From a virus (Duplodnaviria > Heunggongvirae > Uroviricota > Caudoviricetes), in the IMG/VR virus record IMGVR_UViG_2778261450_000006, positions 1 to 41,586 of that record: a DNA stretch of 41,586 nt; one strand, written 5' to 3'. Shown one piece after another: positions 1,720 to 41,586 of this stretch (positions are counted from its first letter, which is position 1; each line of letters starts with the position of its first letter). Both the position numbers and the translations under genes were made by a program. The notes under the pieces are model-generated. The model was not told the DNA's origin. It ran no database searches and saw nothing but the letters and a program-made list of their open reading frames with translations.

Positions 1720-1720
1720 T

Positions 1721-3469: not shown

Positions 3470-3540
3470 TTATTATATTTTAGGCGTGGTGATTTTTTTT
3501 CGCCATGCCTATTTTATATTTATCATCACAATGATGTTGT

Positions 3541-3957
3541 TTATTTTTGTTTAAGTCTTCTAAGCTTCATGCATTCTAATGAGAATAATAATAGAGTTGT
3601 GCTGTATATAAAGCCAGAGTTAGTTAATAACTTTAAATTTAATGCTTCAGGATTTTCACTGAGAAAGTGAAAGGCATAAACTAAGTATACAGCTAAAGTA
3701 GCCGTTCCAATTGTTGGTCCAATATCGCCTTGATCATGAGGTTCAAGGTTTACATTGAACTTGAAGATTAGCCATTCAAATCCCCAAGTAAAAAAAACAA
3801 CTAATATCATGGCTGCGAATAATTTCGCGATGTTATCTGCTGATGGATTCATCAGAACAGATTGTTTCTGAAAAAATTCACAAAGTGAGAGTCCGAAAAA
3901 AATAAAAAAAAGTGGTCTGGAACTAAATTTTTCAAAAACTTTGAATAGGGTTTCCAT
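3541..3957 (-). CDS. Small multi-pass membrane protein (hypothetical)
   Basis: 138-aa ORF with several hydrophobic stretches (LFFIFFGLSL, AAMILVVFFTWGFEWLIF, TATLAVYLVYAF, FIYSTTLLLFSL). Lies directly downstream of the P4-type integrase on the same strand. Confidence 0.45.
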   Translation of the reverse strand: METLFKVFEKFSSRPLFFIFFGLSLCEFFQKQSVLMNPSADNIAKLFAAMILVVFFTWGFEWLIFKFNVNLEPHDQGDIGPTIGTATLAVYLVYAFHFLSENPEALNLKLLTNSGFIYSTTLLLFSLECMKLRRLKQK

Positions 3958-3995
3958 TTTCTTTACCTTCAGGATTATATTAGCTATTCTGATAC

Positions 3996-5225
3996 TTAGG
4001 CTACCAGAGCATTTGATCTTTGAGCTTGAACGTAATCACTCCACCATTGCATCAAACTCTGTCGCTCTATCAGATATTCTGCACGATTGTATGCTGCGAT
4101 AATTTCATCTTTTTTCGAGTGGGCAAGCGCTGCCTCAAGAACTTCAGCTCTGAATTTACCAGACTCCTCTGCCGCTGTTCGTGCAATAGAACGCATACCG
4201 TGAGCTACAAGCTCGCCTCCGAACCCCATTCGGATGATAGCTGCGTTGGCTGTTTGTTCATGCATATGATTAAGAGGCGCTTTTATGCTGGGGAAAACCC
4301 ATTCTCTATGCCCACTTATTGATTTCATTAATTCAAGGATGCGCAAAGCTTCTTTACTCAAAGGAACTTTGTGAAGCTTTTTCATTTTCATGAAATCAGC
4401 AGGAATGTTCCAAATGCTGTTGGTTGTATCAATATCAGACCACCTTGCGCGAACGGCTTCACCCGGACGAACCCATGTCAACAATTGCCATTCAATTAGC
4501 ATACGTGTTTCCAACCGGATTGACGCATTCGTCAAAGATTCCATAAACCTTGGCAATTCGCTTGGGGGAAGGGCAGGCATATTTTGCTTTTTTGGTTTAC
4601 TGAATCTTTGACCAAGGTTGTCAGCCGGGTTGAACTCAATAAGTTCTTCAGTAGCTGCCCACCGGAAGATTTCATTCAGACGTGAAATGATACGGCGTAG
4701 AGTTTCCAATACGCCTCGTTGCTCAATAGGATCAAGGTGTTGTTTTAAGAGCTTAGGTCGGATCTCATTGATAGGGACATTACCCAGACCGGGAAAGACA
4801 TTTCTCTCTAAGCTGCGCCAGATGTCTGCTGCATGGTCTTGTGAGATACCTGATGTCTTTACCTTCTCATCTAACCATTTCCGCGCTACGGCTTGGAGAG
4901 TGTGCTCAGTAGCACTCTTTAATGCCTTCGCCTTATCGTTGTTATGGATTTGGGGATCAACACCATTTGCCAGAAAGGAGAGATATTCATCACGTAAGGC
5001 TCTGGCTCTTGCAAGGGTAAGGTGAGGATATGTCCCAAGGCTCATTTTGGTTCTTTTCTTGCTCACTGGTACTGCATACCTGAAATACCAATTTTTCTTG
5101 CCTCCTTTCGCCAAAGGAGCGATTCGTAGAATCAGACCATCACCGTCAAACAAGTTGATTTCTTTATCGGCTGGCTTGGTGCTTTTGATTTCAGTGTCAG
5201 TGAGCTTCTTAGCGATTTTTGCCAT
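3996..5225 (-). CDS. intA: P4-type tyrosine integrase (IntA/CP4-57-like)
   Basis: N-terminus MAKIAKKLTDTEIKSTKPADKEINLFDGDGL and C-terminal HGMRS...AHS...AYNRAEYL..QWW motifs typical of P4-family integrases. Start chosen at the internal ATG (5223-5225) with GAGGG RBS; track ORF extends to 5267. Adjacent to the 45-bp ssrA 3' fragment. Confidence 0.85.
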   Translation of the reverse strand: MAKIAKKLTDTEIKSTKPADKEINLFDGDGLILRIAPLAKGGKKNWYFRYAVPVSKKRTKMSLGTYPHLTLARARALRDEYLSFLANGVDPQIHNNDKAKALKSATEHTLQAVARKWLDEKVKTSGISQDHAADIWRSLERNVFPGLGNVPINEIRPKLLKQHLDPIEQRGVLETLRRIISRLNEIFRWAATEELIEFNPADNLGQRFSKPKKQNMPALPPSELPRFMESLTNASIRLETRMLIEWQLLTWVRPGEAVRARWSDIDTTNSIWNIPADFMKMKKLHKVPLSKEALRILELMKSISGHREWVFPSIKAPLNHMHEQTANAAIIRMGFGGELVAHGMRSIARTAAEESGKFRAEVLEAALAHSKKDEIIAAYNRAEYLIERQSLMQWWSDYVQAQRSNALVA

Positions 5226-5390
5226 TTTGGGACCCTCGGTTTTTGGACCCTTCTTAATGGGTCCCATTCAGGGTGCCATAACTCGTAGTTCTCAGCAATT
5301 CTCACTGGACGACAATAGACGTAAAAAAGCCCGCAGAGCTTGTGCTGTGTGGGCTTAGTAGACTTCATTGAACTTCAAACAACTAAAAAG

Positions 5391-5435
5391 TGGTGGAGCT
5401 GGCGGGAGTTGAACCCGCGTCCGAAATTCCTACAT
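5391..5435. repeat. 45-bp direct repeat identical to the 3' end of ssrA (att core; prophage attR and original island att)
   Basis: tggtggagctggcgggagttgaacccgcgtccgaaattcctacat is identical to 40527-40571; flanks diverge on both sides. Confidence 0.9.
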
Positions 5436-5528: not shown

Positions 5529-5548
5529 CTGTCGCCAATCTGTCGCCA
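5529..5548 (+). repeat. Two direct copies of CTGTCGCCA 11 bp apart (candidate integrase arm-type sites)
   Basis: ctgtcgcca at 5529-5537 and 5540-5548; the same 9-10-mer recurs as an inverted pair at 40430-40468 near the other prophage end. Confidence 0.4.
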
Positions 5549-5550
5549 CA

Positions 5551-6201
5551 TTATCCGCTGCTTGAGTTGAAATCTGTGGGTTTACGGAGATTAGATCTTA
5601 TGGTTTTTTCAGCGATACGAATAGTCGAAAATTTATGCAGGTTCATCAGTGCTATACAAATCCCAAGTGCAAAAAAGTAGCTGGACATTCCTAATCTTTG
5701 CATATCAGTAAGTTTATTAATTTTCTCTAAAATATGTTGGGTTACTAATCCTTCGTATACAAAAGGTATGGAAGTTATAAAACCGCCAATAAAATAGAAT
5801 GTTAAGCTTATCAGCTTTATAGATTTTCTATATATCCAAAAGCGATATCTTTTTTTTGTCCATTTAAATATTTGTTTTTCACTACTAATAGAAATTAGTT
5901 TTTGACACTTGCTATAGTTATCAATGTCATTAACTGGATCGTTAACACCTAAAAGAATCTCTCTCTGTTCTGGAGTTAGGTTCTTATCTTTTGTTATTGC
6001 AGCAATACCATAATTATATGCAACTTTCTTGATTTTGGGATCTTCAGTATTCTTATATAGATTGTATGCAAACTCGCTAATGTTTTTGCGCGAGTTGAAA
6101 ATCTTATCTTTGGGGAAAACCCAGCCGGATCTTACCGCGAGCATCTGTATGATCGGGGTAATTATCGCGACAGAATACTTAATTATCTCGTTTATGTTCA
6201 T
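5551..6201 (-). CDS. AT-rich cargo protein with C-terminal transmembrane segments (hypothetical; moron between attR and int)
   Basis: 216-aa ORF, lysine-rich and AT-rich, hydrophobic segments LISLTFYFIGGFITSIPFVY and MSSYFFALGICIALM. Not part of the canonical P2/186 gene set at this position. Confidence 0.5.
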   Translation of the reverse strand: MNINEIIKYSVAIITPIIQMLAVRSGWVFPKDKIFNSRKNISEFAYNLYKNTEDPKIKKVAYNYGIAAITKDKNLTPEQREILLGVNDPVNDIDNYSKCQKLISISSEKQIFKWTKKRYRFWIYRKSIKLISLTFYFIGGFITSIPFVYEGLVTQHILEKINKLTDMQRLGMSSYFFALGICIALMNLHKFSTIRIAEKTIRSNLRKPTDFNSSSG

Positions 6202-6215
6202 GATCCATTGTTTAC

Positions 6216-7232
6216 TTAAATTAAGTTATAAAGAGGGTTTTTTGTTACTGCATCCTCCAGGTGGTCTGGAGAGAAGTGTGCATAAATCATCGTCATTTTA
6301 ATATCTGAGTGCCCTAAAATATCACGTAAAACGAGTATGTTCCCACCGTTCATCATAAAATGGCTGGCAAATGTATGGCGCAGGACGTGGGTGCATTGGC
6401 CTTCCGGTAGTTCAATACCGGCCCGTTTTACCGCCCGTTCAAAGGCTTTTCTGCATGGTGTGAATAATTTCCCTCGGTTTTTGGGTAGCTCGTTGTACAG
6501 ATCCTGAGATATCGGTACGGTACGGTTTTTTTTACCCTTGGTCTTTGTATAGGTAATCCGGTATTTCGATAGTTGATGGCCCTGCAGGTTTTCAGCTTCA
6601 CTCCAACGAGCACCGGTTGCTAGGCATATTTTTGCAATCATTAGCAGACTGGGGCTTTGAGAATCAGCACAGGCATCCAGCAGACGTTTAATTTCCTCCG
6701 GGGTTAGGAACGCCAGTTCACCCTCCGTAATTTTAAATGTTGGAAGCCCGGCAAGCGGGTTGGGGGCTGACCAGTGGCCCAGCTTTTTCAGTGTACCAAA
6801 AACAGATGATAGGTTGCGCTGTTCAAGGTTTACCGTGCGGGGCTTAACGGGTGACATGAACGAGCCGTCTTCATTTTGGACCTCCCCCTTTAATCTGGCT
6901 TCCCGATATTTTGTGAAATCACCTGCTGTCAGCTCAGAGGCGATGGGATCGCCTAGACCATTACAGATAATTCTAAGTTTCGCCATCAGGCGTTTGGGGT
7001 CTGCGAGTGTTTGACCATATAGGGAATACCACTGCTCAATCACTTCTGATAATCGCCGCCGATCTTCCTTCTCACCAAGCCATGGCTTTTTGTTTACTTC
7101 GTTCATGGTGAAGTTTTCGAATGCTATGGCTTCGCCTTTCGTGGCAAATTGCTTACGCACGCGCTTGCCATTGCGTCCATTGGGATAGCACTCACACAAC
7201 CATTTTCCGTTCGGCTGTTTTCTGATGGTCAT
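6216..7232 (-). CDS. int: P2/186-family tyrosine integrase
   Basis: 338 aa; GRNGKRVRKQF...AFE N-terminus and C-terminal LATGARWSEA ... HVLRHTFASHFMMNGG ... LGHSDIKMTMIYAHF catalytic region, as in P2 Int. Confidence 0.9.
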   Translation of the reverse strand: MTIRKQPNGKWLCECYPNGRNGKRVRKQFATKGEAIAFENFTMNEVNKKPWLGEKEDRRRLSEVIEQWYSLYGQTLADPKRLMAKLRIICNGLGDPIASELTAGDFTKYREARLKGEVQNEDGSFMSPVKPRTVNLEQRNLSSVFGTLKKLGHWSAPNPLAGLPTFKITEGELAFLTPEEIKRLLDACADSQSPSLLMIAKICLATGARWSEAENLQGHQLSKYRITYTKTKGKKNRTVPISQDLYNELPKNRGKLFTPCRKAFERAVKRAGIELPEGQCTHVLRHTFASHFMMNGGNILVLRDILGHSDIKMTMIYAHFSPDHLEDAVTKNPLYNLI

Positions 7233-7233
7233 A

Positions 7234-7866
7234 TCAAAGGCTCTTAATGATTTTCAGTGCACGGCCTACTACCTCAATGTCATCCAGGCCACACTCAAAC
7301 GATGAATCATCCTGATGCACTACTAATCTGTTTCCCGGGAGTCGAGTCAATTTAACAATGCTTTTTATCCCGTCGATATCGACTAACCACATACCATTCA
7401 CTGGTGGTGTTTGGTTGCGATCTATTAAATAAGAATCACCAGAAGTAGTCACCAGCAGTAGGTTGCTTGAGTCTGAGGGGAGTATGCTGCTATCAATGAT
7501 TGCTTTTCCAGCATCGACCAATAAACCACCGTTGAGAGTCGCCTTGTCAATTTCAGGAGATACTAGTTCAGAAAGAGGTACAACCTTGCTGGAGTTCACG
7601 GAATTGATATTTTTTTTAGGTTCAATGTTTGGACCTGGCTCCCCCTGTCCGGTGGTTAGCCACAGTAAAGAAACTCCTGTTTCCAAGGCGCACTGAATCA
7701 CCCACTCTGCAGGAAAACTATCTCTTAAGTATCTGTTTGCCATGGTGCTTTTTGATGCGCCTAAGTGATCGCAAAGTTGCTGTCTGGACTTGAAATCATA
7801 GGCTGCCATTAGTCTATGGATAGCTTCTCTTCCCCCTGTATTCTCTCCAGCCTTTACCTGTATCAT
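7234..7866 (-). CDS. cI: CI-type immunity repressor (186 CI-like)
   Basis: 210 aa directly upstream of int on the same strand, divergent from apl/cII; N-terminal motif QCALETGVSLLWLTTGQG resembles 186 CI. Confidence 0.8.
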   Translation of the reverse strand: MIQVKAGENTGGREAIHRLMAAYDFKSRQQLCDHLGASKSTMANRYLRDSFPAEWVIQCALETGVSLLWLTTGQGEPGPNIEPKKNINSVNSSKVVPLSELVSPEIDKATLNGGLLVDAGKAIIDSSILPSDSSNLLLVTTSGDSYLIDRNQTPPVNGMWLVDIDGIKSIVKLTRLPGNRLVVHQDDSSFECGLDDIEVVGRALKIIKSL

Positions 7867-13717: not shown

Positions 13718-13737
13718 TACTGTAAATATAAACAGTG
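13718..13737. promoter_or_regulatory. LexA (SOS) box overlapping the promoter of the tum/dinI-like operon
   Basis: tactgtaaatataaacagtg is a perfect CTGT-N8-ACAG match, ~40 bp upstream of the 13778 ORF. Confidence 0.7.
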
Positions 13738-13777: not shown

Positions 13778-13966
13778 ATGCAGGACTATTTTTTGGAGTC
13801 TTTGAAGCTCCAGCGCATTGATTTTTTTCTTAAGCTTGTAGCGGCTAGTGAGTGTAGTGATGAAGAGAAGGGGCTGGCCCTGCAGTGGGTTTCTGAACTG
13901 ACAGATGAACTCATGGCAAAAATCAGAACCCACGAATACAACCGCTCAATGGATGTCATCAGCTGA
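13778..13966 (+). CDS. Small SOS-controlled protein, candidate Tum-like antirepressor N-terminal module
   Basis: 62-aa ORF with AGGAGG RBS directly downstream of the LexA box; position corresponds to 186 tum. Confidence 0.45.
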   Translation: MQDYFLESLKLQRIDFFLKLVAASECSDEEKGLALQWVSELTDELMAKIRTHEYNRSMDVIS

Positions 13967-13976
13967 GGTGACTTTT

Positions 13977-14210
13977 ATGCGCATTGAAATAATGATCGAT
14001 AAAGAGCAGAAGATTAGCCAGTCTACCCTGGACGCTCTGGAGTCAGAGCTTTACCGCAACCTGCAACCCATCTATCCCAAGACAGCTATCCGCATCCGTA
14101 AAGGGTCGGCAAACGGCGTTGAGCTGAGTGGCTTAAAGCTTGATGAAGACAAAAAGCGGGTGATGGAAATTATGCAGCAGGTTTGGGAAGACGACAGCTG
14201 GCTGCACTAA
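13977..14210 (+). CDS. dinI: DinI-family protein
   Basis: MRIEIMIDKEQKISQSTLDALESEL...EDKKRVMEIMQQVWEDDSW resembles E. coli DinI; ATG 13977 with GAGGTG RBS (track ORF starts 13905). Confidence 0.75.
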   Translation: MRIEIMIDKEQKISQSTLDALESELYRNLQPIYPKTAIRIRKGSANGVELSGLKLDEDKKRVMEIMQQVWEDDSWLH

Positions 14211-15535: not shown

Positions 15536-16450
15536 ATGCCATACCAATTGGTAGAGCTTAGCCCCGTAGCTAACGATCTTGAACAGTTAGGAACCAAAGA
15601 GAAGTTTTGGTTCTATTTCTCCGATGACACTGTAAATTTGCAGTTGTTTAAGTACTCTAGGCCAGGTACTGGCGAGCATTGGTCTGAAAAGTGTGCTGCT
15701 GAGTTATGTCATTTGCTTAACATTCCACATGCTAGCTATGATTTGGCGCGATACAATGGTCGATTCGGTGTGGTGACTCAGAATATCATTCCATCTGGTT
15801 TCCGGATGGTAATGGGAAATGAAGTGCTTCACAGTTCGACATTCGATTATCCTGGGCCTTTACAAGCCGGGGAAAAGCCGGTAAGGGTCAGAGAACACAC
15901 TGTCACAAGGGTATTGGGTTGTTTGGATAGGGAATCTATCAAGCCTCCTCCGAGTGTATATGATCTAACCGGGCTAAATGCAGCAGATGTATTTTGTGGA
16001 TATTTGATGCTCGATGCACTTGTGAGTAATCAAGATCGCCATCATGAAAATTGGGCGATCATGCTTAACAATGAAACTGGTGAGCAGTTTTTGTGTCCAA
16101 CATACGATCATGCCGCTAGTTTAGGAAGGGAGATGTTAGATGATGAGCGTAACGAACGGCTTAATACTAAAGATAAAAATCGACAAATCCCATGTTTTGT
16201 AAGAAAAGCTCGCTCTGAGCTATTCAAAGCAAAAACTGATAAAAAGCCCTTGCTGACCGTTGAAGCATTTCAACATGCAGTTGAAGGGAGAGTTGCCGCT
16301 CGCGACCATTGGTTAGGTAAGTTGAGCGTTTTAACAGAAGATTCCATTACAGATGTGTTTAACCAAGTGCCTTCATCGTGTATATCCGACAGTGCACGTA
16401 GATTTGCAACGTTAATGGTAATGGAAAATCGCAGAAGGTTACTAGAATGA
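15536..16450 (+). CDS. HipA-like serine/threonine kinase core (lacks HipA N-terminal subdomain)
   Basis: P-loop-like GTKEKF near N-terminus and catalytic motif LDALVSNQDRHHENWAIM matching the HipA D-x-H-x-x-N region; YDHAASLG follows. AT-rich leader. Confidence 0.7.
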   Translation: MPYQLVELSPVANDLEQLGTKEKFWFYFSDDTVNLQLFKYSRPGTGEHWSEKCAAELCHLLNIPHASYDLARYNGRFGVVTQNIIPSGFRMVMGNEVLHSSTFDYPGPLQAGEKPVRVREHTVTRVLGCLDRESIKPPPSVYDLTGLNAADVFCGYLMLDALVSNQDRHHENWAIMLNNETGEQFLCPTYDHAASLGREMLDDERNERLNTKDKNRQIPCFVRKARSELFKAKTDKKPLLTVEAFQHAVEGRVAARDHWLGKLSVLTEDSITDVFNQVPSSCISDSARRFATLMVMENRRRLLE

Positions 16451-17187
16451 CTAATACAAACTCCGTTTACGTCGCATGGCAGGCACCAGATACCAGAGAC
16501 TGGCATGTTGTTGGTAACTTGCAAGAGCGCAAATCGGGGTATGTTTTCAGGTATACCAAAGGTGCTCTTAAATCTACTAAATTTACAAAGTTTAGCGGCA
16601 TGAGTGATGTTCGTGAAACTTATGTTTCGGAAGAATTGTTTCCTCTTTTTAAAAATCGCCTTTTATCACCGAGACGTCCAGAGTATCCGAGTTTCATTAA
16701 ATGGCTTGGATTTGAAGAAGATAAGGTAAATCCTATCGATATTCTTGCTCGCTCGGGAGGCTTACGAAGCACTGATCAGCTGCAGATTTTCAAAAAAATT
16801 GATGTTGATTCTGATGGTAACTTTGAGCATTTTTTCTTCTTACATGGACTTGGTTACTTAAATAGCTTAGCTAATGCTCGTGTATCTGAATTGAAACCGG
16901 GGCAAATTTTGCGTCTTTGCTTGGATCTTCAAAATGAATACGATGGGGATGCTGTTGTCGTTCGTGCAGATAAACCAGCTGAAATCGTTGGTTACTGCCC
17001 TAGGTATTTAAGTAATGATATCAAGAAGATGTTATTGGATGATCCAAAATCAATCACTTTAACGGTCGAAAAGATTAGCGATGATGCTCCTCATAACTAT
17101 CGGTTATTATGTAAATTATCAGGAGTACTAAGCCAAGCCTGTCAATCGACGCTGATTCCTCAGGATGAGTTTGAACCTATTGAGTAA
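16447..17187 (+). CDS. HIRAN-domain protein with N-terminal HipA-N/HipS-like region
   Basis: C-terminal LKPGQILRLCLDLQNEYDGDAVVVRADKPAEIVGYCPRYL matches the HIRAN signature; start overlaps kinase stop (ATGA). Confidence 0.65.
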   Translation: MTNTNSVYVAWQAPDTRDWHVVGNLQERKSGYVFRYTKGALKSTKFTKFSGMSDVRETYVSEELFPLFKNRLLSPRRPEYPSFIKWLGFEEDKVNPIDILARSGGLRSTDQLQIFKKIDVDSDGNFEHFFFLHGLGYLNSLANARVSELKPGQILRLCLDLQNEYDGDAVVVRADKPAEIVGYCPRYLSNDIKKMLLDDPKSITLTVEKISDDAPHNYRLLCKLSGVLSQACQSTLIPQDEFEPIE

Positions 17188-25613: not shown

Positions 25614-26600
25614 TTACTCTTTGTAAATTCGATCTGGCTCGTTGTACTCTATTTCTCTCAGTCGACCATTTTTAATGGTGAAATTACCTTTTTCTGATTT
25701 AAATTCCCCACCACATTTACAAGGCTTGTTATCAGAAAGAGTGTAGTTTTTTAGTATTAGTTCATCATCGTTGTCAAAGGTGGGGATTATTTTTTTAGTT
25801 TCAGCGCATTGCGTGCACTTAACTTGCAATTCCGGGAGTGTGGTACAAGCTGTAAGGCTCAGTTCGACATTCTCTGGAACAATGTAATATCCTAGCAATG
25901 GTGTCCCACGACTTTCTGAAACACCTTTGTATGTATTGGTTATGCCTCCAATAAATGCAAGGATTTCATCATACGCTTGAGTATTACGCATTGTTACCCA
26001 GCAATCTCGATCTTCATAACTATACTCACGACCTGCAACGCAAATTGCTGTAACGTAACGAAAGTCTTCTTTGTATATTTTTTTATACCTTTCGGCTTCA
26101 GTAATTCCATTTGGTGATAAGTCACTACTTAGAGCAAATATTACCGAGCGAAGTTTCTCTATTTTGTGTTGGATTAGTTTGCCTGATTCATCTTTTATTC
26201 CAGGTAAGTAACCGAATTTCTCATTAAGTTCTTTTGCACTTGAGTGTGCAGAGCTGAGTTCCGATGAACTTAATGTGGTTTTTACCTCAATGGTATATAG
26301 AACTGATTCTATTGGGAATAACCCTGTGGCACCATCGATTAATATCGGAGGGAGTATTGATTTATTGTAAATAATAATATCTATTTGAGGTGATAACTTT
26401 CCTGAATACTGTTCAATGATTTGCCCTGTGCCAATGCCAACATCTGCGGGCAAAAGAGGTCGAAATAGTTGACTTAATAATATTTCTAGAACAGCTCCCT
26501 TAACACCCTGGTGGGAAAATCCTGCAGCACTTTTGGCTTGAGCAATCGCCGATTCGACCTTCCCTCTAAGTAAAGCCTGATACTGGTTCTTATTTTTCAT
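25614..26600 (-). CDS. Cargo protein: PD-(D/E)xK-like nuclease fold with C-terminal zinc-ribbon (candidate anti-phage defence gene)
   Basis: 328-aa antisense ORF between S and V, strongly AT-rich against a GC-rich late operon. Motifs PQIDIIIYN ... ESVLYTIEVKT (D ... E-x-K) and C-terminal CTQCAETKK ... CKCGG cysteine cluster. Confidence 0.6.
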   Translation of the reverse strand: MKNKNQYQALLRGKVESAIAQAKSAAGFSHQGVKGAVLEILLSQLFRPLLPADVGIGTGQIIEQYSGKLSPQIDIIIYNKSILPPILIDGATGLFPIESVLYTIEVKTTLSSSELSSAHSSAKELNEKFGYLPGIKDESGKLIQHKIEKLRSVIFALSSDLSPNGITEAERYKKIYKEDFRYVTAICVAGREYSYEDRDCWVTMRNTQAYDEILAFIGGITNTYKGVSESRGTPLLGYYIVPENVELSLTACTTLPELQVKCTQCAETKKIIPTFDNDDELILKNYTLSDNKPCKCGGEFKSEKGNFTIKNGRLREIEYNEPDRIYKE

Positions 26601-30644: not shown

Positions 30645-31237
30645 TGAAACCTGTTTTTGATGAAAATGGGCTGGCTACAGTGCCGGGCGATATGCGTTGT
30701 TTTTATTATGATGCTGAAACATCTGAGTATACGGGCTGGTCTGATGAATATATTAATACTGGCGTAAGTATGCCCGCCTGTTCCACTGGTATTGACCCTG
30801 GCGAAAACATTCCGGGAAAAGTGGCAGTATTTACGGGTAAGGGATGGAGCCATGAAGAAGACCATCGCAATGAGACTGTTTACTCAACAGAAAATGGCGC
30901 AGCTGTTACAGTGGATTATATCGGTGCCATCAAAGACGGTTATGTCACGCTTTCACCGTTAACGCCATACGATAAATGGGATGGTGAGAAATGGGTGACG
31001 GATACCGAGGCACAGCATAGCGCCGCAGTAGACGCGGCAGAAGCACAACGTCAGTCACTGATTGATACTGTAATGGCTTCCATTAGTCTGATTCAACTGA
31101 AATTGCAGGCCGGACGGAAACTGACGCAGGCAGAAACAACCCGACTTAACGCCGTGCTGGATTACATTGACGCGGTGACGGTAACAGATACCAGCACCGC
31201 GCCGGATATCATCTGGCCTGAACTGCCGGAGGCGTAG
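30644..31237 (+). CDS. G: Tail fibre assembly protein (P2 gpG/Tfa family), currently expressed copy
   Basis: 197 aa directly after H; C-terminal motif LDYIDAVTVTDTSTAPDIIWPELP shared with the inverted copy. Confidence 0.8.
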   Translation: MKPVFDENGLATVPGDMRCFYYDAETSEYTGWSDEYINTGVSMPACSTGIDPGENIPGKVAVFTGKGWSHEEDHRNETVYSTENGAAVTVDYIGAIKDGYVTLSPLTPYDKWDGEKWVTDTEAQHSAAVDAAEAQRQSLIDTVMASISLIQLKLQAGRKLTQAETTRLNAVLDYIDAVTVTDTSTAPDIIWPELPEA

Positions 31238-31628
31238 GCCATTCAATATCTGGCGCACTGGAAGTATCGACCAGCTCCAGTGCGTCCAGATAATCCAGCC
31301 ACAAATTATATTGCGCCAGTTCCTCACCTTTCAGACGACCAATAGCCGCTTTACCAGGCCATTGCCTGCTGTTCATGTGCTCGTTGGCTTCATTAATAAG
31401 TTTTCCTTTTTTCAACTCTGCCAATGCAATAAGGTTTTCTTTTGATAAAGGTGGTTGCTCTGTCAAAACCGGATATCCCTCCTGATTGCTGACTATTTTC
31501 ATGCCATTATCCTGACCATCCAGTAGTGACAGCCATTCATCCGTGGTTATCTCAACAGCATCTGAAGGTGCTTTATTTAAATCGGTAAAAAAACCATTTT
31601 CTTTTTGTGAATAGAAGTATCTGTCCAT
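31209..31628 (-). CDS. Alternative tail fibre assembly protein (inverted copy)
   Basis: 139 aa on opposite strand; C-terminus LWLDYLDALELVDTSSAPDIEWPTP parallels the + strand Tfa; 3' ends overlap convergently. Confidence 0.75.
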   Translation of the reverse strand: MDRYFYSQKENGFFTDLNKAPSDAVEITTDEWLSLLDGQDNGMKIVSNQEGYPVLTEQPPLSKENLIALAELKKGKLINEANEHMNSRQWPGKAAIGRLKGEELAQYNLWLDYLDALELVDTSSAPDIEWPTPPAVQAR

Positions 31629-31631
31629 TTA

Positions 31632-31991
31632 TCAATCTCCAAAAGCAATCCAGTAAGCAAAAGGATTTATTCCTTGCTCAGTCACAGATGACATCAGGGA
31701 AAATTGCGATGGTGAAACAGGTAATGCTGCAAAACTAACCATTGTTGACACACCTGACCGTGCATTATCGTACGATGCAACAACACAATAATTGGTATTG
31801 CTGAAAGATATCGGCAGGGTGATATTTACAGGTGAGCCTAATGGCCCTGATGCTGATATTCCCATTTGAATGATGGTTCCATCAGGCAATTTTCTCCAGC
31901 GATTAGAACTCGGATTTCTTTTCCAGGCTGACATATCCGGTATCTGATTTTCTCCTGTGCCTACATCCCTTTTCGCCGCTTCTCCCAAACC
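31632..31991 (-). CDS. Alternative tail-fibre C-terminal cassette (promoterless; fused to H constant region after inversion)
   Basis: Minus-strand frame reads ...GLGEAAKRDVGTGENQIPDMSAWKRN... from the crossover site. No independent start expected; the Met in the track ORF (to 32033) lies beyond the site. Confidence 0.6.
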   Translation of the reverse strand, partial: GLGEAAKRDVGTGENQIPDMSAWKRNPSSNRWRKLPDGTIIQMGISASGPLGSPVNITLPISFSNTNYCVVASYDNARSGVSTMVSFAALPVSPSQFSLMSSVTEQGINPFAYWIAFGD

Positions 31992-32005
31992 AACGTTTAT
32001 GAAAA
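31980..32005. repeat. Invertase crossover site (inverted partner of 30175-30200)
   Basis: ttctcccaaacc-AA-cgtttatgaaaa; reverse complement shares ttggtttgggagaa with the H-internal site. Confidence 0.6.
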
Positions 32006-32060
32006 TGCAGAGATAACGGCTAACTGGCATCATCTCCGGTTTTTATTCAGGGGGATGATC

Positions 32061-38510: not shown

Positions 38511-39607
38511 ATTTCAGCTCTGAACTGCTTAACAAAGGCAACAAAACTCCCGCATTCAGCATCAGTATTGAGGGCAGGGATATCACCACTGTGCTGGATA
38601 ACCGCCTGATGAGTTTGACGCTGACGGACAATCGGGGCTTTGAAGCAGACCAGCTTGATCTGGAGCTGGACGACGCCGACGGAAAAATCGTGCTGCCGCG
38701 CCGTGGTGCGGTTATTACGCTGGCGCTGGGCTGGAAGGGGCAGCCGCTTTTCCCGAAAGGGGCATTCACGGTGGACGAGATTGAACACACTGGCGCACCG
38801 GACCGCCTGACTATCCGGGCGCGAAGTGCTGATTTTCGTGAAACGCTGAATACCCGCCGTGAAAAGTCGTGGCACAAGACCACCGTTGGGGAAGTGGTGA
38901 AGGAAATAGCTGCACGGCACAAACTGAAGATGGCATTGGGTAAAGACCTGTCAGATAAACCCGTGGAACATATAGACCAGACCAATGAGAGTGACGGCAG
39001 TTTTCTGATGCGACTGGCGCGCCAGTACGGTGCTATTGCATCGGTGAAAAATGGCAATCTGTTATTCATCCGGCAGGGACAGGGCAAAAGCGCCAGCGGT
39101 AAACCACTGCCGGTGATCACTATCACGCGTAAGGACGGCGACAGTCACCGCTTTACCCTGGCAGATCGCGGAGCCTATACGGGCGTCATTGCCAGCTGGT
39201 TGCATACCCGCGAACCCGCGAAGAAAGAAAGCACCACGGTGAAGCGTAAGCGCAGAACTAAGAAGCAGAAGAAAGAGCCGGAAGCGAAGCAGGGCGATTA
39301 TCTGGTGGGGACGGATGAAAACGTGCTGGTACTTAATCGCACTTATGCCAACCGGAGCAACGCCGAACGAGCGGCGAAAATGCAGTGGGAACGCCTGCAA
39401 CGCGGTGTTGCGTCATTCTCGCTACAACTGGCGGAAGGTCGGGCAGATCTCTACACGGAAATGCCTGTGAAGGTCAGTGGCTTTAAACAGCCAATAGATG
39501 ATGCGGAATGGACCATTACGACTCTGACACATACCGTCAGCCCGGATAACGGTTTTACGACCAGTATTGAACTTGAAGTGAAAATTGGTGATCTTGAAAT
39601 GGAATAA
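38507..39607 (+). CDS. D: Tail protein D (P2 gpD family)
   Basis: GTG start overlapping U stop with GGGAGGG RBS; 366 aa. Confidence 0.9.
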   Translation: MNFSSELLNKGNKTPAFSISIEGRDITTVLDNRLMSLTLTDNRGFEADQLDLELDDADGKIVLPRRGAVITLALGWKGQPLFPKGAFTVDEIEHTGAPDRLTIRARSADFRETLNTRREKSWHKTTVGEVVKEIAARHKLKMALGKDLSDKPVEHIDQTNESDGSFLMRLARQYGAIASVKNGNLLFIRQGQGKSASGKPLPVITITRKDGDSHRFTLADRGAYTGVIASWLHTREPAKKESTTVKRKRRTKKQKKEPEAKQGDYLVGTDENVLVLNRTYANRSNAERAAKMQWERLQRGVASFSLQLAEGRADLYTEMPVKVSGFKQPIDDAEWTITTLTHTVSPDNGFTTSIELEVKIGDLEME

Positions 39608-39675
39608 ATGGTTCTCAATATTGATATTTTGTGTATCATTGCAATGATTCTGATAGCAAAGGTAGGGATCTGGAT

Positions 39676-39894
39676 ATGATGAATTGTCCAAAGTGTGGTC
39701 ATGCGGCGCACACAAGGAGCAGTTTTCAAGTAACAGAAAGCACCAAAGAGCGTTACTGCCAGTGCCAAAATATTAACTGCGGGAGCACTTTTGTTACCCA
39801 TGAAACAGTGGTCCGGTTTATTGTGACACCTGCAGTGATTGCCACAGCCCCTCCACATCCATTGCCAGGTGGTCAGGGCCATATGAATTTTTAA
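39676..39894 (+). CDS. ogr: Ogr/Delta-type zinc-finger late transcription activator
   Basis: MMNCPKCGHAAHTRSS ... CQCQNINCGSTF ... PHPLPGG resembles P2 Ogr; track ORF begins upstream at 39631. Confidence 0.85.
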   Translation: MMNCPKCGHAAHTRSSFQVTESTKERYCQCQNINCGSTFVTHETVVRFIVTPAVIATAPPHPLPGGQGHMNF

Positions 39895-39901
39895 GAAAGA
39901 G

Positions 39902-39922
39902 AACCTGCTACGGCAGGTTTTT
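39902..39922. terminator. Rho-independent terminator after ogr (possibly bidirectional)
   Basis: aacctgc-tacg-gcaggtt stem-loop followed by TTTATT; also closes the convergent minus-strand gene. Confidence 0.6.
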
Positions 39923-40403
39923 ATTCATCTGGGATCTCACCCGTTTCAAGAAAATGTATAAAGCCAGGCTCATCTATGATGATAGTGCCTTTCATCCTGG
40001 CTGCCGATACTTTTGATGGGCCTGCATTGTAACCGCAACAGAGCATCTGAAGGTTTTGGGTTACAGATGTTCTTACCGTTAATCCTTGTTCATTCGCCTT
40101 ATCAACCAACCTTTCTTTATCTGCTTTCTTAAATCCGGTGAAACACACATCGAATGTATTTTTTTTCGGACCTGACTGCTTAGTGAGATGTGAGTAGTTT
40201 TCGGGGAGGAATGACGCGCATTCCTGAATGGCTTGTTCTTGTGAATCGTATTGTTTAAGAATGCGGTCTTTTCGGAAGGTTTTTATTCGATCGGTGTTCT
40301 TACAAATGCCCTGTATGTGATTTTCGCTATAACTGATGCTCTGTATTGAGTGAACACCGATACGACCATTTGCATTGATGTAAACAAAGTGAAGTTCTTC
40401 CAT
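39921..40403 (-). CDS. Cargo protein with WYL-like N-terminal region and BRCT-like C-terminal domain
   Basis: 160 aa, AT-rich, between ogr and attL. N-terminal RIKTFRKDRI resembles the WYL signature; C-terminal CFTGFKKADKERLVDKANEQGLTV ... GTIIIDEPGFIHFL resembles a BRCT fold. Confidence 0.5.
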   Translation of the reverse strand: MEELHFVYINANGRIGVHSIQSISYSENHIQGICKNTDRIKTFRKDRILKQYDSQEQAIQECASFLPENYSHLTKQSGPKKNTFDVCFTGFKKADKERLVDKANEQGLTVRTSVTQNLQMLCCGYNAGPSKVSAARMKGTIIIDEPGFIHFLETGEIPDE

Positions 40404-40429
40404 GTCAAACCTCTTTGCATGATTTCAAG

Positions 40430-40468
40430 ATGGCGACAGGCAAGATGGACGCAAAAGTCTGTCGCCAT
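40430..40468. repeat. Inverted pair of CTGTCGCCAT (candidate integrase arm-type sites or hairpin) near attL
   Basis: atggcgacag (40430-40439) and ctgtcgccat (40459-40468); same motif as the direct repeats at 5529-5548. Confidence 0.4.
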
Positions 40469-40484
40469 TTTGCCGCCACTACCT

Positions 40485-40518
40485 AAGAAAAAGGGGCTAC
40501 GCTTTCACGTAACCCCTT
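40485..40518 (-). terminator. ssrA rho-independent terminator (supplied by the prophage side of attL)
   Basis: On the minus strand, 9 nt past the tmRNA 3' end: 11-bp stem (one G-U pair), 6-nt loop, then UUUUUCU. Confidence 0.55.
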
Positions 40519-40526
40519 GATTTATT

Positions 40527-40571
40527 TGGTGGAGCTGGCGGGAGTTGAACCCGCGTCCGAAATTCCTACAT
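40527..40571. repeat. 45-bp att core (3' end of ssrA), direct repeat of 5391-5435
   Basis: Exact 45/45 identity; it is the 3'-terminal 45 nt of the tmRNA gene. Confidence 0.9.
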
Positions 40572-40767
40572 CCTCGGTACTACATGCTTAGTCAGTCTTT
40601 ACATTCGCTTGCCAGCTGCGGACGGACACGCCACTAACAAACTAGCCTGATTAAGTTTTAACGCTTCAACCCCAGGCAGGGCTTCCACGCGATCTCTTTT
40701 GGGTTTGACCTCTCTTGATCCCCGTCCTAAGAGCGGAGGCTAGGGAGAGAGGGCTCTAAGCAGGTTA

Positions 40768-40800
40768 TTAAGCTGCTAAAGCGTAGTTTTCGTCGTTTGC
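40768..40800 (-). other. tmRNA tag-peptide reading frame (ANDENYALAA, stop)
   Basis: Minus-strand GCA AAC GAC GAA AAC TAC GCT TTA GCA GCT TAA inside ssrA. Confidence 0.9.
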
Positions 40801-40903
40801 GACTATTTTTTGCGGCTTTTTACGAGGCCAACCGCCCCTCGGCATGCACCTTGGGTTTCGCAAATCCCGTCGAATCCAGAATCAGCCCCAATGTGTAAAG
40901 GTA

Positions 40904-41103: not shown

Positions 41104-41586
41104 TTAACGGTGGGCGTTTTTCATGATACGTGCTTTATCCACCTGCCATTCGCGTTCTTTGATATCTGAACGTTTATCGTGCTGTTTTTTACCTTTGGCG
41201 ACGCCGATTTTCACTTTGCACCAGGCATTTTTCCAGTACAGGGAGAGCGCCACTACGGTATAGCCTTCTCGATTGACGCGACCGTACAATGAGTCCAGTT
41301 CGCGTTGGTTGAGAAGTAACTTGCGGGTACGGGTAGGATCGCACACCACATGCGTGGAGGCCACGGCCATTGGCGTGATGTTAGCGCCAAACAGAAATGC
41401 CTCTCCGTCACGCAGAAGGACGTAGCTGTCGCTGATATTGGCTTTTCCTGCGCGCAGGGATTTAACCTCCCAGCCTTGCAGGGCAAGTCCCGCTTCGAAC
41501 TCTTCTTCGATAAAGTATTCGTGACGGGCGCGCTTGTTAAGCGCGATGGTCGCTGAACCAGGTTTATGTGCTTTTTTCTTCGTCAT
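41104..41586 (-). CDS. smpB: SsrA-binding protein SmpB
   Basis: 160-aa product [58 protein letters not shown]... matches E. coli SmpB; start codon is the last three bases of the window. Confidence 0.95.

What the first reader, a model, noticed from the sequence alone, without database searches (positions are those of the whole stretch)
39895..40526. WYL/BRCT-like cargo gene between ogr and attL
A 160-aa AT-rich minus-strand gene lies in the short arm between ogr and the ssrA att core. Its N-terminus has a WYL-like motif (RIKTFRKDRI) and its C-terminus resembles a BRCT fold, both ligand- or nucleic-acid-sensing domains used by regulators of defence islands. It shares a terminator with ogr and has its own upstream region with an inverted CTGTCGCCAT pair.
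Basis: partly seen in the sequence, partly recalled or inferred. Interest (0 to 1): 0.55.

Follow-up and report, generated by a model that had tools for sequence, protein, structure and literature searches.

The report
Prophage WYL–BRCT DNA-sensing accessory protein
A small gene at the edge of a P2-like prophage encodes a protein made only of two binding domains (WYL and BRCT). It belongs to a widespread, unstudied family that normally sits just after the phage repressor gene, and it probably binds unusual DNA rather than acting as a gene regulator or an enzyme.

Summary
A 160-aa, AT-rich minus-strand ORF (39921-40403) lies between ogr and the ssrA att core of a P2-like (Elveevirus, Cartapus-type) prophage.

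Two parts of the interpretation change:
- **The inverted CTGTCGCCAT pair is not the gene's operator.** It belongs to a set of TGGCGRCA sites: two tandem pairs 206 bp apart flanking attP. This layout is conserved in Cartapus and in Yersinia phage MLG42, so they are most likely integrase arm-type sites.
- **The gene is not sporadic cargo.** In at least 20 distant P2-like prophages its homologue lies directly downstream of the repressor (cI-WB-int). Here it has moved across attP (cI-int-attP-WB), so in the lysogen it lies behind ssrA.

The protein has no HTH, WCX or catalytic domain, so the database names "DNA ligase" and "exonuclease" are wrong. About a quarter of family representatives carry membrane anchors. 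The best guess is an effector-less binder of ssDNA or 5'-phosphate DNA ends that acts in superinfection exclusion. Function is untested.

The parts
39921..40403 (-). WYL-BRCT ORF, 160 aa (stop codon 39921-39923)
   Evidence: 100% identical to Escherichia phage Cartapus gp32
40212..40403 (-). WYL domain (aa 1-64): five-stranded Sm/SH3-like barrel plus helix; Y8, T42, F43, R44, D46 conserved
39942..40154 (-). BRCT domain (aa 84-154), LigA/RFC1-like; T89-G90, K96, K131 phosphate-pocket residues
40410..40415 (-). Shine-Dalgarno-like AAGAGG, 6 nt before the ATG
   Evidence: read from the sequence
39902..39919 (.). hairpin between the convergent ogr and WYL-BRCT stop codons; likely a bidirectional terminator
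39676..39894 (+). ogr (late-gene activator), convergent neighbour
   Evidence: Cartapus annotation transferred; cluster c5
40491..40518 (-). phage-supplied terminator of ssrA (12-bp stem plus T run), lying between ssrA and the gene
   Evidence: conserved in 7 phages
40527..40571 (.). att core (45-bp identity with 5391-5435) = 3' end of ssrA
5391..5435 (.). second att core copy at the int-proximal prophage end
40460..40478 (-). tandem pair of TGGCGRCA sites (11-bp spacing): proposed Int arm-type sites.
   Evidence: same layout in Cartapus and MLG42
5530..5548 (-). tandem pair of TGGCGACA sites in the other attP arm, 206 bp from the first pair in the circular phage
7234..7866 (-). 186-type CI repressor. 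It heads the cI-int-(cargo)-attP-WYL/BRCT string in the excised phage
   Evidence: Pfam Phage_CI_repr + Phage_CI_C
6216..7232 (-). integrase
   Evidence: clusters with the Cartapus integrase
5551..6201 (-). 216-aa membrane protein (phrog_21256, GC 33%) between int and att. Its homologues lie directly after the WYL-BRCT gene in L008 and L010

Best explanation
The gene encodes a soluble two-domain binding protein: an N-terminal WYL domain and a C-terminal LigA/RFC1-type BRCT domain. It has no DNA-sequence-reading (HTH) domain and no catalytic domain. It belongs to a large family that is a long-standing accessory gene of the lysogeny module of P2-like phages. In most lineages the gene lies immediately downstream of the repressor, in the same operon. 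In this Elveevirus lineage the order in the circular phage is cI-int-(cargo)-attP-gene. Integration into ssrA therefore cuts the gene off from the cI-int operon and places it behind ssrA and its phage-supplied terminator.

Proposed mechanism (inferred, not shown): the WYL domain binds single-stranded nucleic acid, and the conserved T-G...K pocket of the BRCT binds a terminal phosphate (5'-phosphate at a DNA end, nick or gap). The protein would then recognise ss/ds junctions or DNA ends and act by occupancy, that is by capping or sequestration. The most likely biological role is a lysogenic-conversion function against incoming foreign DNA (superinfection exclusion), comparable in logic to P2 old, tin and fun. 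Membrane-anchored relatives would do this at the inner membrane.

The inverted CTGTCGCCAT repeat upstream is part of the integrase arm-site array of attP, not an operator of this gene.
For: Shown:
- Folds.
- Conserved residues: WYL FRxDR motif and invariant T89, G90, K131 with K96 at >=90%. K96 aligns with the Arg, and K131 with the GPKK lysines, of yeast Rfc1 BRCT. In that domain K208 lines the 5'-end cavity, and the isolated human domain binds recessed 5'-P DNA at about 10 nM (PMC9293004). The S/T-G plus K pocket is described in PMC10386641.
- WYL domains of CapW and DriD bind ssDNA (PMC11662680). R44 lies in the conserved FRxDR motif of the WYL domain. I infer, without having aligned the two proteins, that it corresponds to the Arg whose mutation (E. 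coli CapW R200A) abolishes the ssDNA response.
- No other domain in Pfam, NCBIfam or PADLOC.
- Synteny: the upstream gene is a co-oriented repressor (186-type CI, or HTH+S24), with gaps from a 35-nt overlap to 42 nt in all but one locus (114 nt in L045), in 18 of the 54 genome loci fetched. The same holds in phages PHL101 (4-nt gap) and PV94.
- cI-int-attP-gene order in the circular genome of MLG42.
- The cI-int interval of K139-like P2 phages is a published anti-phage hotspot (PMC9122126). Downstream cargo varies: KAP NTPase, TerB-BRCT and others.
- 36-46 of the 150 best family representatives carry unrelated N- or C-terminal TM anchors with K/P-rich linkers. Two of them sit in the same repressor-adjacent slot of Pasteurellaceae P2-like prophages (L043, L048).
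- Arm sites.
Against: - No experiment or paper addresses this family.
- The protein is not basic: pI 6.95 overall and 5.3 for the BRCT. This is weak for a non-specific DNA binder.
- The WYL domain lacks the canonical W-Y-L triad (H-I-Q here), the arginines that flank it in CapW, and the WCX domain that completes the ssDNA crevice in CapW and DriD. The ligand could therefore be something else: RNA, a nucleotide, a phosphopeptide or ADP-ribose.
- No promoter was found between the ssrA terminator and the ATG, so expression in the lysogen is unproven.
- The window's protein has no TM segment.
- Its possible membrane partner (5551-6201) is absent from Cartapus and MLG42. TM proteins are not enriched downstream of homologues (5/25 against a 20% baseline).
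Confidence: 0.4

Rival explanations
1. DNA-damage sensor that tunes the prophage's lysis-lysogeny decision. It would bind ssDNA gaps at their 5'-phosphate junction, which is the RecFOR loading site. It would either dampen RecA/SOS activation to stabilise lysogeny (as DinI or PsiB do) or pass damage signals to CI or Int.
For: The family shows constant co-transcription with the repressor. WYL domains of DriD, PafBC and CapW are ssDNA damage sensors. The RFC1-type BRCT recognises the 5' junction of gaps. The family's age and vertical inheritance within P2-like phages argue for a phage-lifestyle function rather than shuffled cargo.
Against: This prophage already has the 186-type SOS route: a perfect LexA box at 13720-13735 in front of a DinI/Tum-like ORF, together with a 186-type CI. 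The family occurs with at least two unrelated repressor types, so a specific repressor contact is unlikely. Membrane-anchored variants fit poorly with a nucleoid-wide gap binder. In this phage the gene is uncoupled from the repressor operon in the lysogen.
Confidence: 0.2
2. One reading: a WYL-type ligand-sensing regulator that controls expression of neighbouring cargo or defence genes or of the prophage. The inverted CTGTCGCCAT pair would be its operator.
For: WYL domains are typical of regulators placed upstream of varied defence systems. In many prophages the gene sits at the upstream edge of a variable cargo slot. An inverted repeat lies upstream of the gene.
Against: There is no HTH or any other sequence-specific DNA-binding domain, and no WCX. 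The inverted repeat is not conserved in close relatives. Its motif belongs to the attP arm-site array. Here the gene has no co-oriented downstream gene at all, being convergent with ogr.
Confidence: 0.1
3. Counter-defence or host-takeover decoy. The protein would soak up the ssDNA or nucleotide signal that host WYL regulators or other sensors use. Alternatively, its LigA-like BRCT would compete with host LigA or another BRCT partner.
For: The protein is small and made only of binding domains. The BRCT is most similar to that of LigA. Partner genes and fusions often carry a further BRCT-like module, as in domain X and the TerB-BRCT protein, which suggests BRCT-BRCT contacts.
Against: The gene lies in the lysogenic operon rather than in an early lytic operon. 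Membrane anchors in a quarter of the family are not expected for a cytosolic sponge. There is no similarity to any known anti-defence protein.
Confidence: 0.1
4. The database annotations are right: the protein is a DNA ligase (phrog_2561, RefSeq phage records) or an exonuclease (Cartapus record).
For: phrog_2561 is labelled 'DNA ligase' (E 2.5e-77). There are weak NCBIfam hits to LigA and to a DEDDh exonuclease.
Against: All these hits cover only the C-terminal BRCT of the 650-aa ligase or 330-aa exonuclease models, at scores 15-26 bits against cut-offs of 369-1051. The 160-aa protein has no adenylation, OB, Zn, HhH or DEDD domain.
Confidence: 0.01

Closest known systems
wHTH-WYL-WCX regulators (CapW, BrxR, PafBC, DriD)
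   Different: No wHTH, no linker helices and no WCX. The W-Y-L triad is H-I-Q, and the arginines flanking it in CapW (RWHVR) are absent. The output domain is a BRCT, so the protein cannot work as a ligand-switched transcription factor.
BRCT domains of NAD+-dependent DNA ligase LigA and of clamp-loader subunit RFC1
   Same: These are the best sequence and Foldseek matches. They share the FTG...GPxK phosphate-pocket residues. The RFC1 domain binds 5'-phosphorylated recessed DNA ends.
   Different: No catalytic or AAA+ module is attached. The domain is acidic (pI 5.3). DNA or phosphate binding is untested.
Lysogenic-conversion and exclusion genes of P2-like phages (P2 old, tin, fun; the cI-int hotspot of K139-like phages, Rousset et al. 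2022)
   Same: It is a prophage accessory gene of low GC. In most lineages it lies in the repressor-int interval that PMC9122126 describes as an anti-phage hotspot.
   Different: It is unrelated in sequence. It is conserved across genera at a fixed place next to the repressor rather than being swapped. No exclusion phenotype is known. The comparison with old, tin and fun rests on my own knowledge of P2.
PADLOC candidate PDC-S48
   Same: It shares a BRCT domain: E 1.7e-7, profile positions 334-406 of 411.
   Different: Only the terminal BRCT matches. The rest of the 411-position model is not matched, even by the longer fused relatives.
WYL accessory domain of Pif1-type helicase (PDB 8bnv)
   Same: It is a WYL domain used as an accessory nucleic-acid-binding module outside transcription factors, and it aligns on the same motif.
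   Different: There it is attached to a helicase motor. That it binds ssDNA is from my own memory of the literature and was not checked here.

Membership tests
WYL domain (Pfam PF13280) | Sm/SH3-like five-stranded beta-barrel fold | tested here: met
WYL domain (Pfam PF13280) | Conserved F-R-x-D-R-I motif after the WYL strand | tested here: met
   T42, F43, R44 and D46 are invariant or >=90% conserved. They align with FRLDR/FRFDRI of PafBC, PafC and 8bnv.
WYL domain (Pfam PF13280) | W-Y-L triad on the central strand | tested here: not met
   The equivalent residues are H29-I30-Q31, with family consensus H/Y-I/L-Q.
WYL domain (Pfam PF13280) | Score above the Pfam gathering threshold | tested here: inconclusive
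   The window protein gives no Pfam WYL hit at E<=10, and the PADLOC WYL model gives E 0.027. However, 8/50 relatives match at E<=0.1 (best 1.5e-5) and 24/60 at E<=0.001 (best 1.2e-8).
BRCT domain (Pfam PF00533) | beta-alpha-beta-beta-alpha-beta-alpha fold | tested here: met
BRCT domain (Pfam PF00533) | Score above the Pfam gathering threshold (21.3 bits) | tested here: inconclusive
   The window protein scores 19.9 bits, E 9e-4, just below the cut-off. 43/50 relatives match.
BRCT domain (Pfam PF00533) | Phosphate-binding pocket: S/T-G in the beta1-alpha1 loop plus Lys at the start of alpha2 | tested here: met
   T89, G90 and K131 are invariant in 50 sequences. The pocket definition is taken from PMC10386641. 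Actual ligand binding is not testable here.
wHTH-WYL-WCX transcription factors (CapW/BrxR/PafBC/DriD) | N-terminal winged helix-turn-helix | tested here: not met
   There is no HTH hit in Pfam or NCBIfam. The protein begins directly with the WYL barrel.
wHTH-WYL-WCX transcription factors (CapW/BrxR/PafBC/DriD) | C-terminal WCX dimerisation and ligand-crevice domain | tested here: not met
   The WYL domain is followed by two short helices, a low-confidence linker (pLDDT 69) and the BRCT.
NAD+-dependent DNA ligase (label of phrog_2561 and RefSeq phage records) | Adenylation, OB, Zn-finger and HhH domains | tested here: not met
   Only model positions 547-650 of 652 (the BRCT) are matched, at 20.9 bits against a cut-off of 444.
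DEDDh exonuclease-BRCT (source of the 'putative exonuclease' label) | DEDD exonuclease domain | tested here: not met
   Only positions 229-307 of 331 are matched, at 26.4 bits against a cut-off of 389.
PADLOC PDC-S48 candidate defence protein | Match over the whole 411-position model | tested here: not met
   Only positions 334-406 are matched.
Tyrosine-integrase arm-type sites of attP (for the upstream repeat) | A repeated short motif on both arms at a fixed distance from the core, conserved among related phages | tested here: met
   Two tandem TGGCGRCA pairs (11-bp spacing) lie 206 bp apart around the core in the window, Cartapus and MLG42. There are 12 hits against 4.3 expected in the window.
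Tyrosine-integrase arm-type sites of attP (for the upstream repeat) | Binding by the integrase N-terminal domain | not testable with these tools
   This needs footprinting or EMSA with the phage Int.

The most novel reading that the evidence does not exclude
WYL-BRCT proteins would be a new, effector-less class of prophage immunity or lysogeny factor. They would recognise ssDNA next to a 5'-phosphate end (incoming phage genome ends, nicks or gaps) and neutralise it by capping alone, often from a membrane tether. In the ssrA-integrating lineage, site-specific recombination would rewire the gene between two transcription units: behind cI-int in the free phage, and behind the very strongly transcribed host ssrA in the lysogen. 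Expression would then report the integration state.
Probability: 0.2. Interest if true: 0.7.

Novelty: new variant of a known kind. Interest (0 to 1): 0.5.

Why it matters
WYL domains are known almost only as ligand switches of transcription factors that control defence systems, and bacterial BRCT domains almost only as appendages of ligases and polymerase-associated proteins. Here the two are joined with nothing else. The family is large: 209 clusters at 50% identity with E<=1e-30. It holds a fixed place next to the immunity repressor of P2-like phages, from Escherichia to Pseudomonas, Burkholderia, Mannheimia and Vibrio.

If the protein binds DNA ends or gaps, it would give a simple and testable case of DNA-structure sensing by a prophage, whether in exclusion or in induction control. 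It would also correct the widespread 'DNA ligase' and 'exonuclease' annotations. Reading the upstream repeat as Int arm sites also defines the attP architecture of ssrA-integrating Elveevirus phages.

Tried and rejected
1. Enzyme annotations (ligase, exonuclease). Rejected: only the BRCT matches.
2. The inverted repeat as a LexA box or operator. Rejected: the orientation is ACAG...CTGT, not CTGT-N8-ACAG. The only LexA box in the window is at 13720-13735. The repeat is not conserved in relatives, and the motif belongs to the att arm array.
3. An own sigma-70 promoter upstream. None was found by scan or by eye, and no Ogr-type TGT-N12-ACA site was seen. This is left open.
4. The 216-aa membrane protein (5551-6201) as an obligate partner. 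It is adjacent to homologues in L008 and L010. However, it is absent from Cartapus and MLG42, and membrane proteins are not enriched downstream of homologues (5/25, equal to the baseline). Not supported.
5. Domain X, found fused at the N- or C-terminus in L011, L013, L024 and L031 and as a separate ORF in L014 and L037. It has no Pfam, PADLOC or named homologue and is absent from the window. Its C-terminal half is weakly BRCT-like.
6. PDC-S48 membership. Rejected.
7. Literature searches for WYL+BRCT, BRCT plus phage defence, and BRCT plus P2-like found no functional study. The only mention of the fusion is a list in Makarova et al. 2014.
8. A profile search of the PDB with the N-terminal domain alone gave only weak E-values (1.3-2), although five of the six hits were WYL proteins. 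The fold search settled the matter.
Full report
**Setting.** The window holds a P2-like prophage integrated into the 3' end of ssrA.
- The tmRNA lies at 40527-40889 (-) and smpB at 41104-41586 (-).
- The 3' end of ssrA is duplicated at 5391-5426. By eye the identity runs for 45 bp, 5391-5435 = 40527-40571. The prophage therefore spans about 5436-40526.
- The region 39600-40560 is 99.9% identical to Escherichia phage Cartapus (Peduoviridae, Elveevirus). There the ORF is gp32, labelled 'putative exonuclease protein'. RefSeq calls the same gene 'DNA ligase' in phage 500465-1.
- The queried stretch 39895-40526 (the gene with its flanks) is covered at >=80% in 171 of 5426 complete E. coli genomes. 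It is named 'BRCT domain-containing protein' or 'hypothetical protein'.

**The observation.**
- The ORF at 39921-40403 (-) is 160 aa, and RIKTFRKDRI starts at residue 39.
- Gene GC is 41% against 51% for the prophage.
- A hairpin at 39902-39919 lies between the convergent stop codons of ogr and this gene. It folds much better than shuffled sequence on both strands, with z -4.6 and -3.6.
- The inverted repeat has arms at 40426-40439 and 40459-40472.

**Fold assignments.** The window protein scores just under the Pfam BRCT threshold: 19.9 bits against 21.3, residues 84-145. It gives no Pfam WYL hit. The PADLOC WYL model gives E 0.027 for residues 26-61.

A search of 5.8 billion proteins returned 122 relatives down to 33% identity. 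In an alignment of 50 of them, Y8, T42, T89, G90, F91, L99, L121, G124 and K131 are invariant. Of those 50, 43 hit Pfam BRCT and 8 hit Pfam WYL, with a best E of 1.5e-5.

AlphaFold2 on this alignment gave a confident model with mean pLDDT 92. It shows a five-stranded barrel (aa 3-52) with two helices, a weaker linker, and a beta-alpha-beta-beta-alpha-beta-alpha domain (aa 85-154).
- **WYL motif.** A profile of the N-terminal domain aligns its HIQGIC...KTFRKDRI stretch with the WYL...FRxDRI motif of PafBC, PafC, PafB and a Pif1-type protein.

The canonical W-Y-L triad itself is replaced by H-I-Q.

**What the domains suggest.** The BRCT keeps the phosphate pocket that defines ligand-binding BRCTs, namely S/T-G after beta1 and a Lys at the start of alpha2 (PMC10386641). 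In the profile alignment with yeast Rfc1, F-T-G aligns with F-T-G, K96 aligns with R174, and the G-P-S-K131 motif aligns with G-P-K208-K209. Rfc1 K208 lines the cavity for the recessed 5' end, and the isolated human RFC1 BRCT binds recessed 5'-phosphate DNA at about 10 nM (PMC9293004).

WYL domains of DriD, PafBC and CapW bind ssDNA (PMC11662680). R44 lies in the conserved FRxDR motif. I infer, without having aligned the two proteins, that it corresponds to the Arg whose mutation (E. coli CapW R200A) abolishes the ssDNA response.

There are three caveats:
- The arginines that flank the WYL strand in CapW are absent here.
- The WCX domain that completes the ssDNA crevice is also absent.
- The protein is not basic: pI 6.95 overall and 5.3 for the BRCT.

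Binding of ssDNA plus a 5'-phosphate end is therefore a reasoned inference, not a result.

**What it is not.**
- There is no HTH, WCX, nuclease or ligase catalytic domain.
- The 'DNA ligase' and 'exonuclease' names come from matches restricted to the terminal BRCT of much longer models, at 15-26 bits against cut-offs of 369-1051.
- The PADLOC candidate PDC-S48 is matched only in its last 73 positions.

**The upstream repeat.** With the degenerate core TGGCGRCA there are 12 hits in the window against 4.3 expected. Five of them lie within about 125 bp of the att cores:
- a tandem pair at 40460/40471 (- strand, 11-bp spacing);
- a tandem pair at 5530/5541 (- strand, 11-bp spacing);
- one inverted copy at 40431.

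In the circular phage the two tandem pairs are 206 bp apart, on either side of the core. Exactly this layout, two tandem pairs 206 bp apart, is found in the int-gene interval of Cartapus. It is also found in Yersinia phage vB_YpM_MLG42, which is only 74% identical.

The inverted copy is present only in the window and Cartapus. In Klebsiella, Citrobacter, Tatumella, Erwinia and Plesiomonas relatives, that stretch is different.

The repeat is thus best read as part of the integrase arm-type site array of attP. This resembles the tandem arm sites I recall for P2 Int, though that recollection was not checked here. It is not an operator of the gene.

The hairpin at 40491-40518, directly after ssrA, is the ssrA terminator that the phage supplies. 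No sigma-70-like promoter was detected between it and the ATG. A Shine-Dalgarno-like AAGAGG lies 6 nt upstream of the ATG.

**Genomic context of the family.** A scan of one genome per species gave 54 loci. I called ORFs and clustered neighbours. Two arrangements dominate, both inside P2-like prophages.

(a) smpB-ssrA-gene, convergent with ogr-D-U-T. This is the window's arrangement and occurs in Erwinia, Klebsiella, Plesiomonas, Tatumella and Citrobacter.

(b) repressor-gene-int, or repressor-gene followed by variable cargo and then int or the tail gene D. This occurs in Providencia, Xenorhabdus, Hafnia, Brenneria, Yersinia, Rahnella, Oceanisphaera, Wohlfahrtiimonas, Pseudomonas, Undibacterium and Pasteurellaceae.
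- In 18 loci the upstream gene is a co-oriented repressor. The gaps run from a 35-nt overlap to 42 nt, except in L045 (114 nt).
- The repressors are of two unrelated kinds: 186-type CI (Phage_CI_repr + Phage_CI_C, as in the window at 7234-7866) and HTH_3 + Peptidase_S24.

Sequenced phages show the same picture:
- Mannheimia phage PHL101: CI (ORF35), then ORF34 after a 4-nt gap.
- Vibrio phage PV94: cI-gp04-gp03-int.
- Burkholderia phages: XRE-hyp-gene, convergent with D.
- Circular genome of Yersinia phage MLG42: cI-int-[287-bp attP]-gene.

All 28 phage records that encode a relative appear to be P2-like. I checked the taxonomy or gene order only for Cartapus, 500465-1, MLG42, PHL101, PV94 and one Burkholderia phage.

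The gene is therefore an old accessory member of the P2-like lysogeny module. In the ssrA-integrating lineage it lies on the far side of attP. Integration cuts it off from cI-int and puts it behind ssrA.

Rousset et al. describe the cI-int interval of K139-like P2 phages as an anti-phage hotspot (PMC9122126). The genes that follow the WYL-BRCT gene do vary. They include a KAP NTPase, a protein with a weak, sub-threshold match to nucleoside 2-deoxyribosyltransferase (E 0.003, 18 bits), a TerB+BRCT protein and membrane proteins.

**Architectural variants.** An exhaustive profile search found 209 clusters (50% identity) at E<=1e-30 and 893 at E<=1e-10.
- Of the 150 best representatives, 86 are 200 aa or shorter. 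That is compatible with the bare two-domain form, although 13-16 of the 90 representatives I did not examine individually also carry a hydrophobic segment.
- 36-46, depending on the hydrophobicity threshold, carry predicted transmembrane segments. These anchors are N-terminal or C-terminal and are mostly unrelated to one another. They are joined to the WYL-BRCT unit by long Lys/Pro-rich linkers. Two of them occupy the repressor-adjacent slot in Pasteurellaceae P2-like prophages (L043, L048).
- About 20 carry an unknown domain 'X' or a further BRCT-like module. X is found fused at either end and as a separate downstream ORF. It has no Pfam or named homologue. The extensions add no known domain.

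Repeated independent acquisition of membrane anchors suggests that the unit often works at the inner face of the membrane. The window's protein has no anchor.

A 216-aa membrane protein (5551-6201) lies on the other side of attP, and its homologues directly follow the gene in L008 and L010. However, it is missing in Cartapus and MLG42. Membrane proteins are also not enriched downstream of homologues (5/25 against a 20% baseline).

**Mechanism: what I commit to.**

Shown:
- a WYL + BRCT architecture with nothing else attached;
- a conserved phosphate pocket and FRxDR motif;
- membership of the repressor operon in most lineages;
- relocation across attP in this lineage;
- the att arm-site nature of the repeat.

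Inferred: the protein recognises single-stranded nucleic acid next to a phosphate-bearing end and acts by occupancy. I rank the possible roles as follows.
- **Lysogenic-conversion role against incoming DNA (superinfection exclusion), about 0.4.** This rests on the hotspot position, the membrane-tethered relatives and the absence of any effector or HTH domain.
- **DNA-damage or SOS-tuning role, about 0.2.** It is the main rival. It is weakened here by a complete 186-type induction route: a LexA box at 13720-13735 in front of a DinI/Tum-like ORF at 13905-14210, together with a 186-type CI.
It lacks a DNA-reading domain.
- **Decoy or LigA-mimic role, about 0.1.**

**Novelty.** The WYL+BRCT combination appears once in the literature I could search, as an item in a list of fusions (Makarova et al. 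2014). No functional work was found. The domains are known. The architecture, without HTH, WCX or an effector, and its fixed place in the P2-like lysogeny module are not described. I rate it a new variant of a known kind, of moderate interest.

Noticed in passing
window 1-5390 (integrase-like ORF 3996-5267, -; att copy 5391-5435): Left of the prophage lies a second integrase gene (423 aa, phrog_1) directly next to the displaced copy of the ssrA 3' end. The P2-like phage therefore sits in tandem with an older ssrA-integrated island. That island also carries two large ORFs (1-1719, 1703-3469) with no PADLOC hit.
   Followed up: partly
window 13720-13735 and 13905-14210: The only perfect LexA-box match in the window (CTGTAAATATAAACAG) lies just upstream of a DinI-like ORF (phrog_189). 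This is where phage 186 carries its SOS-controlled antirepressor tum. Together with the 186-type CI, it suggests an SOS-inducible prophage.
   Followed up: partly
window 15536-17187 (+): Two ORFs in the P2 tin/old-type cargo slot match the PADLOC two-gene candidate defence system PDC-M03 (A: E 2e-122; B: E 3e-93).
   Followed up: no
window 25614-26600 (-): A 328-aa minus-strand ORF is inserted among plus-strand late genes. It has a PD-(D/E)xK / NucC-like nuclease domain (PADLOC PD_DExK, E 7e-32) and is probably another cargo or defence gene.
   Followed up: no
window 5551-6201 (-): This is a very AT-rich (33% GC) 216-aa membrane protein (phrog_21256, unknown function) between int and att. Its homologues lie immediately downstream of the WYL-BRCT gene in Acerihabitans (L008) and Rahnella (L010) prophages.
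   Followed up: partly
L031 5974-7164, L024 5989-7116, L011 5443-6489, L013 5242-6456, L014 6502-7098, L037 2174-3163: An unknown domain of about 200 aa ('X') is fused to the WYL-BRCT unit at either end, or encoded as the next gene. It has no Pfam hit and only hypothetical homologues. Its C-terminal half resembles a BRCT weakly and ends in the same F-x-x-x-L-(E/Q)-T-G motif.
   Followed up: partly
L041 6544-7440 (Undibacterium prophage): The gene after the WYL-BRCT homologue encodes a TerB + BRCT protein. This is a second BRCT protein in the same operon.
   Followed up: no
window 40404-40526 (- strand RNA): If transcribed from ssrA, the leader of the gene would fold into two strong hairpins: the ssrA terminator and the arm-site inverted repeat. 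Together they give -47 kcal/mol, z -5.3. The second hairpin ends about 10 nt before the Shine-Dalgarno sequence. It is not conserved in relatives.
   Followed up: partly
window 31209-32033 (-): Two small minus-strand ORFs (139 and 133 aa) lie in the Z/fun-type slot between the tail-fibre and tail-sheath genes. They have no PADLOC hit.
   Followed up: no
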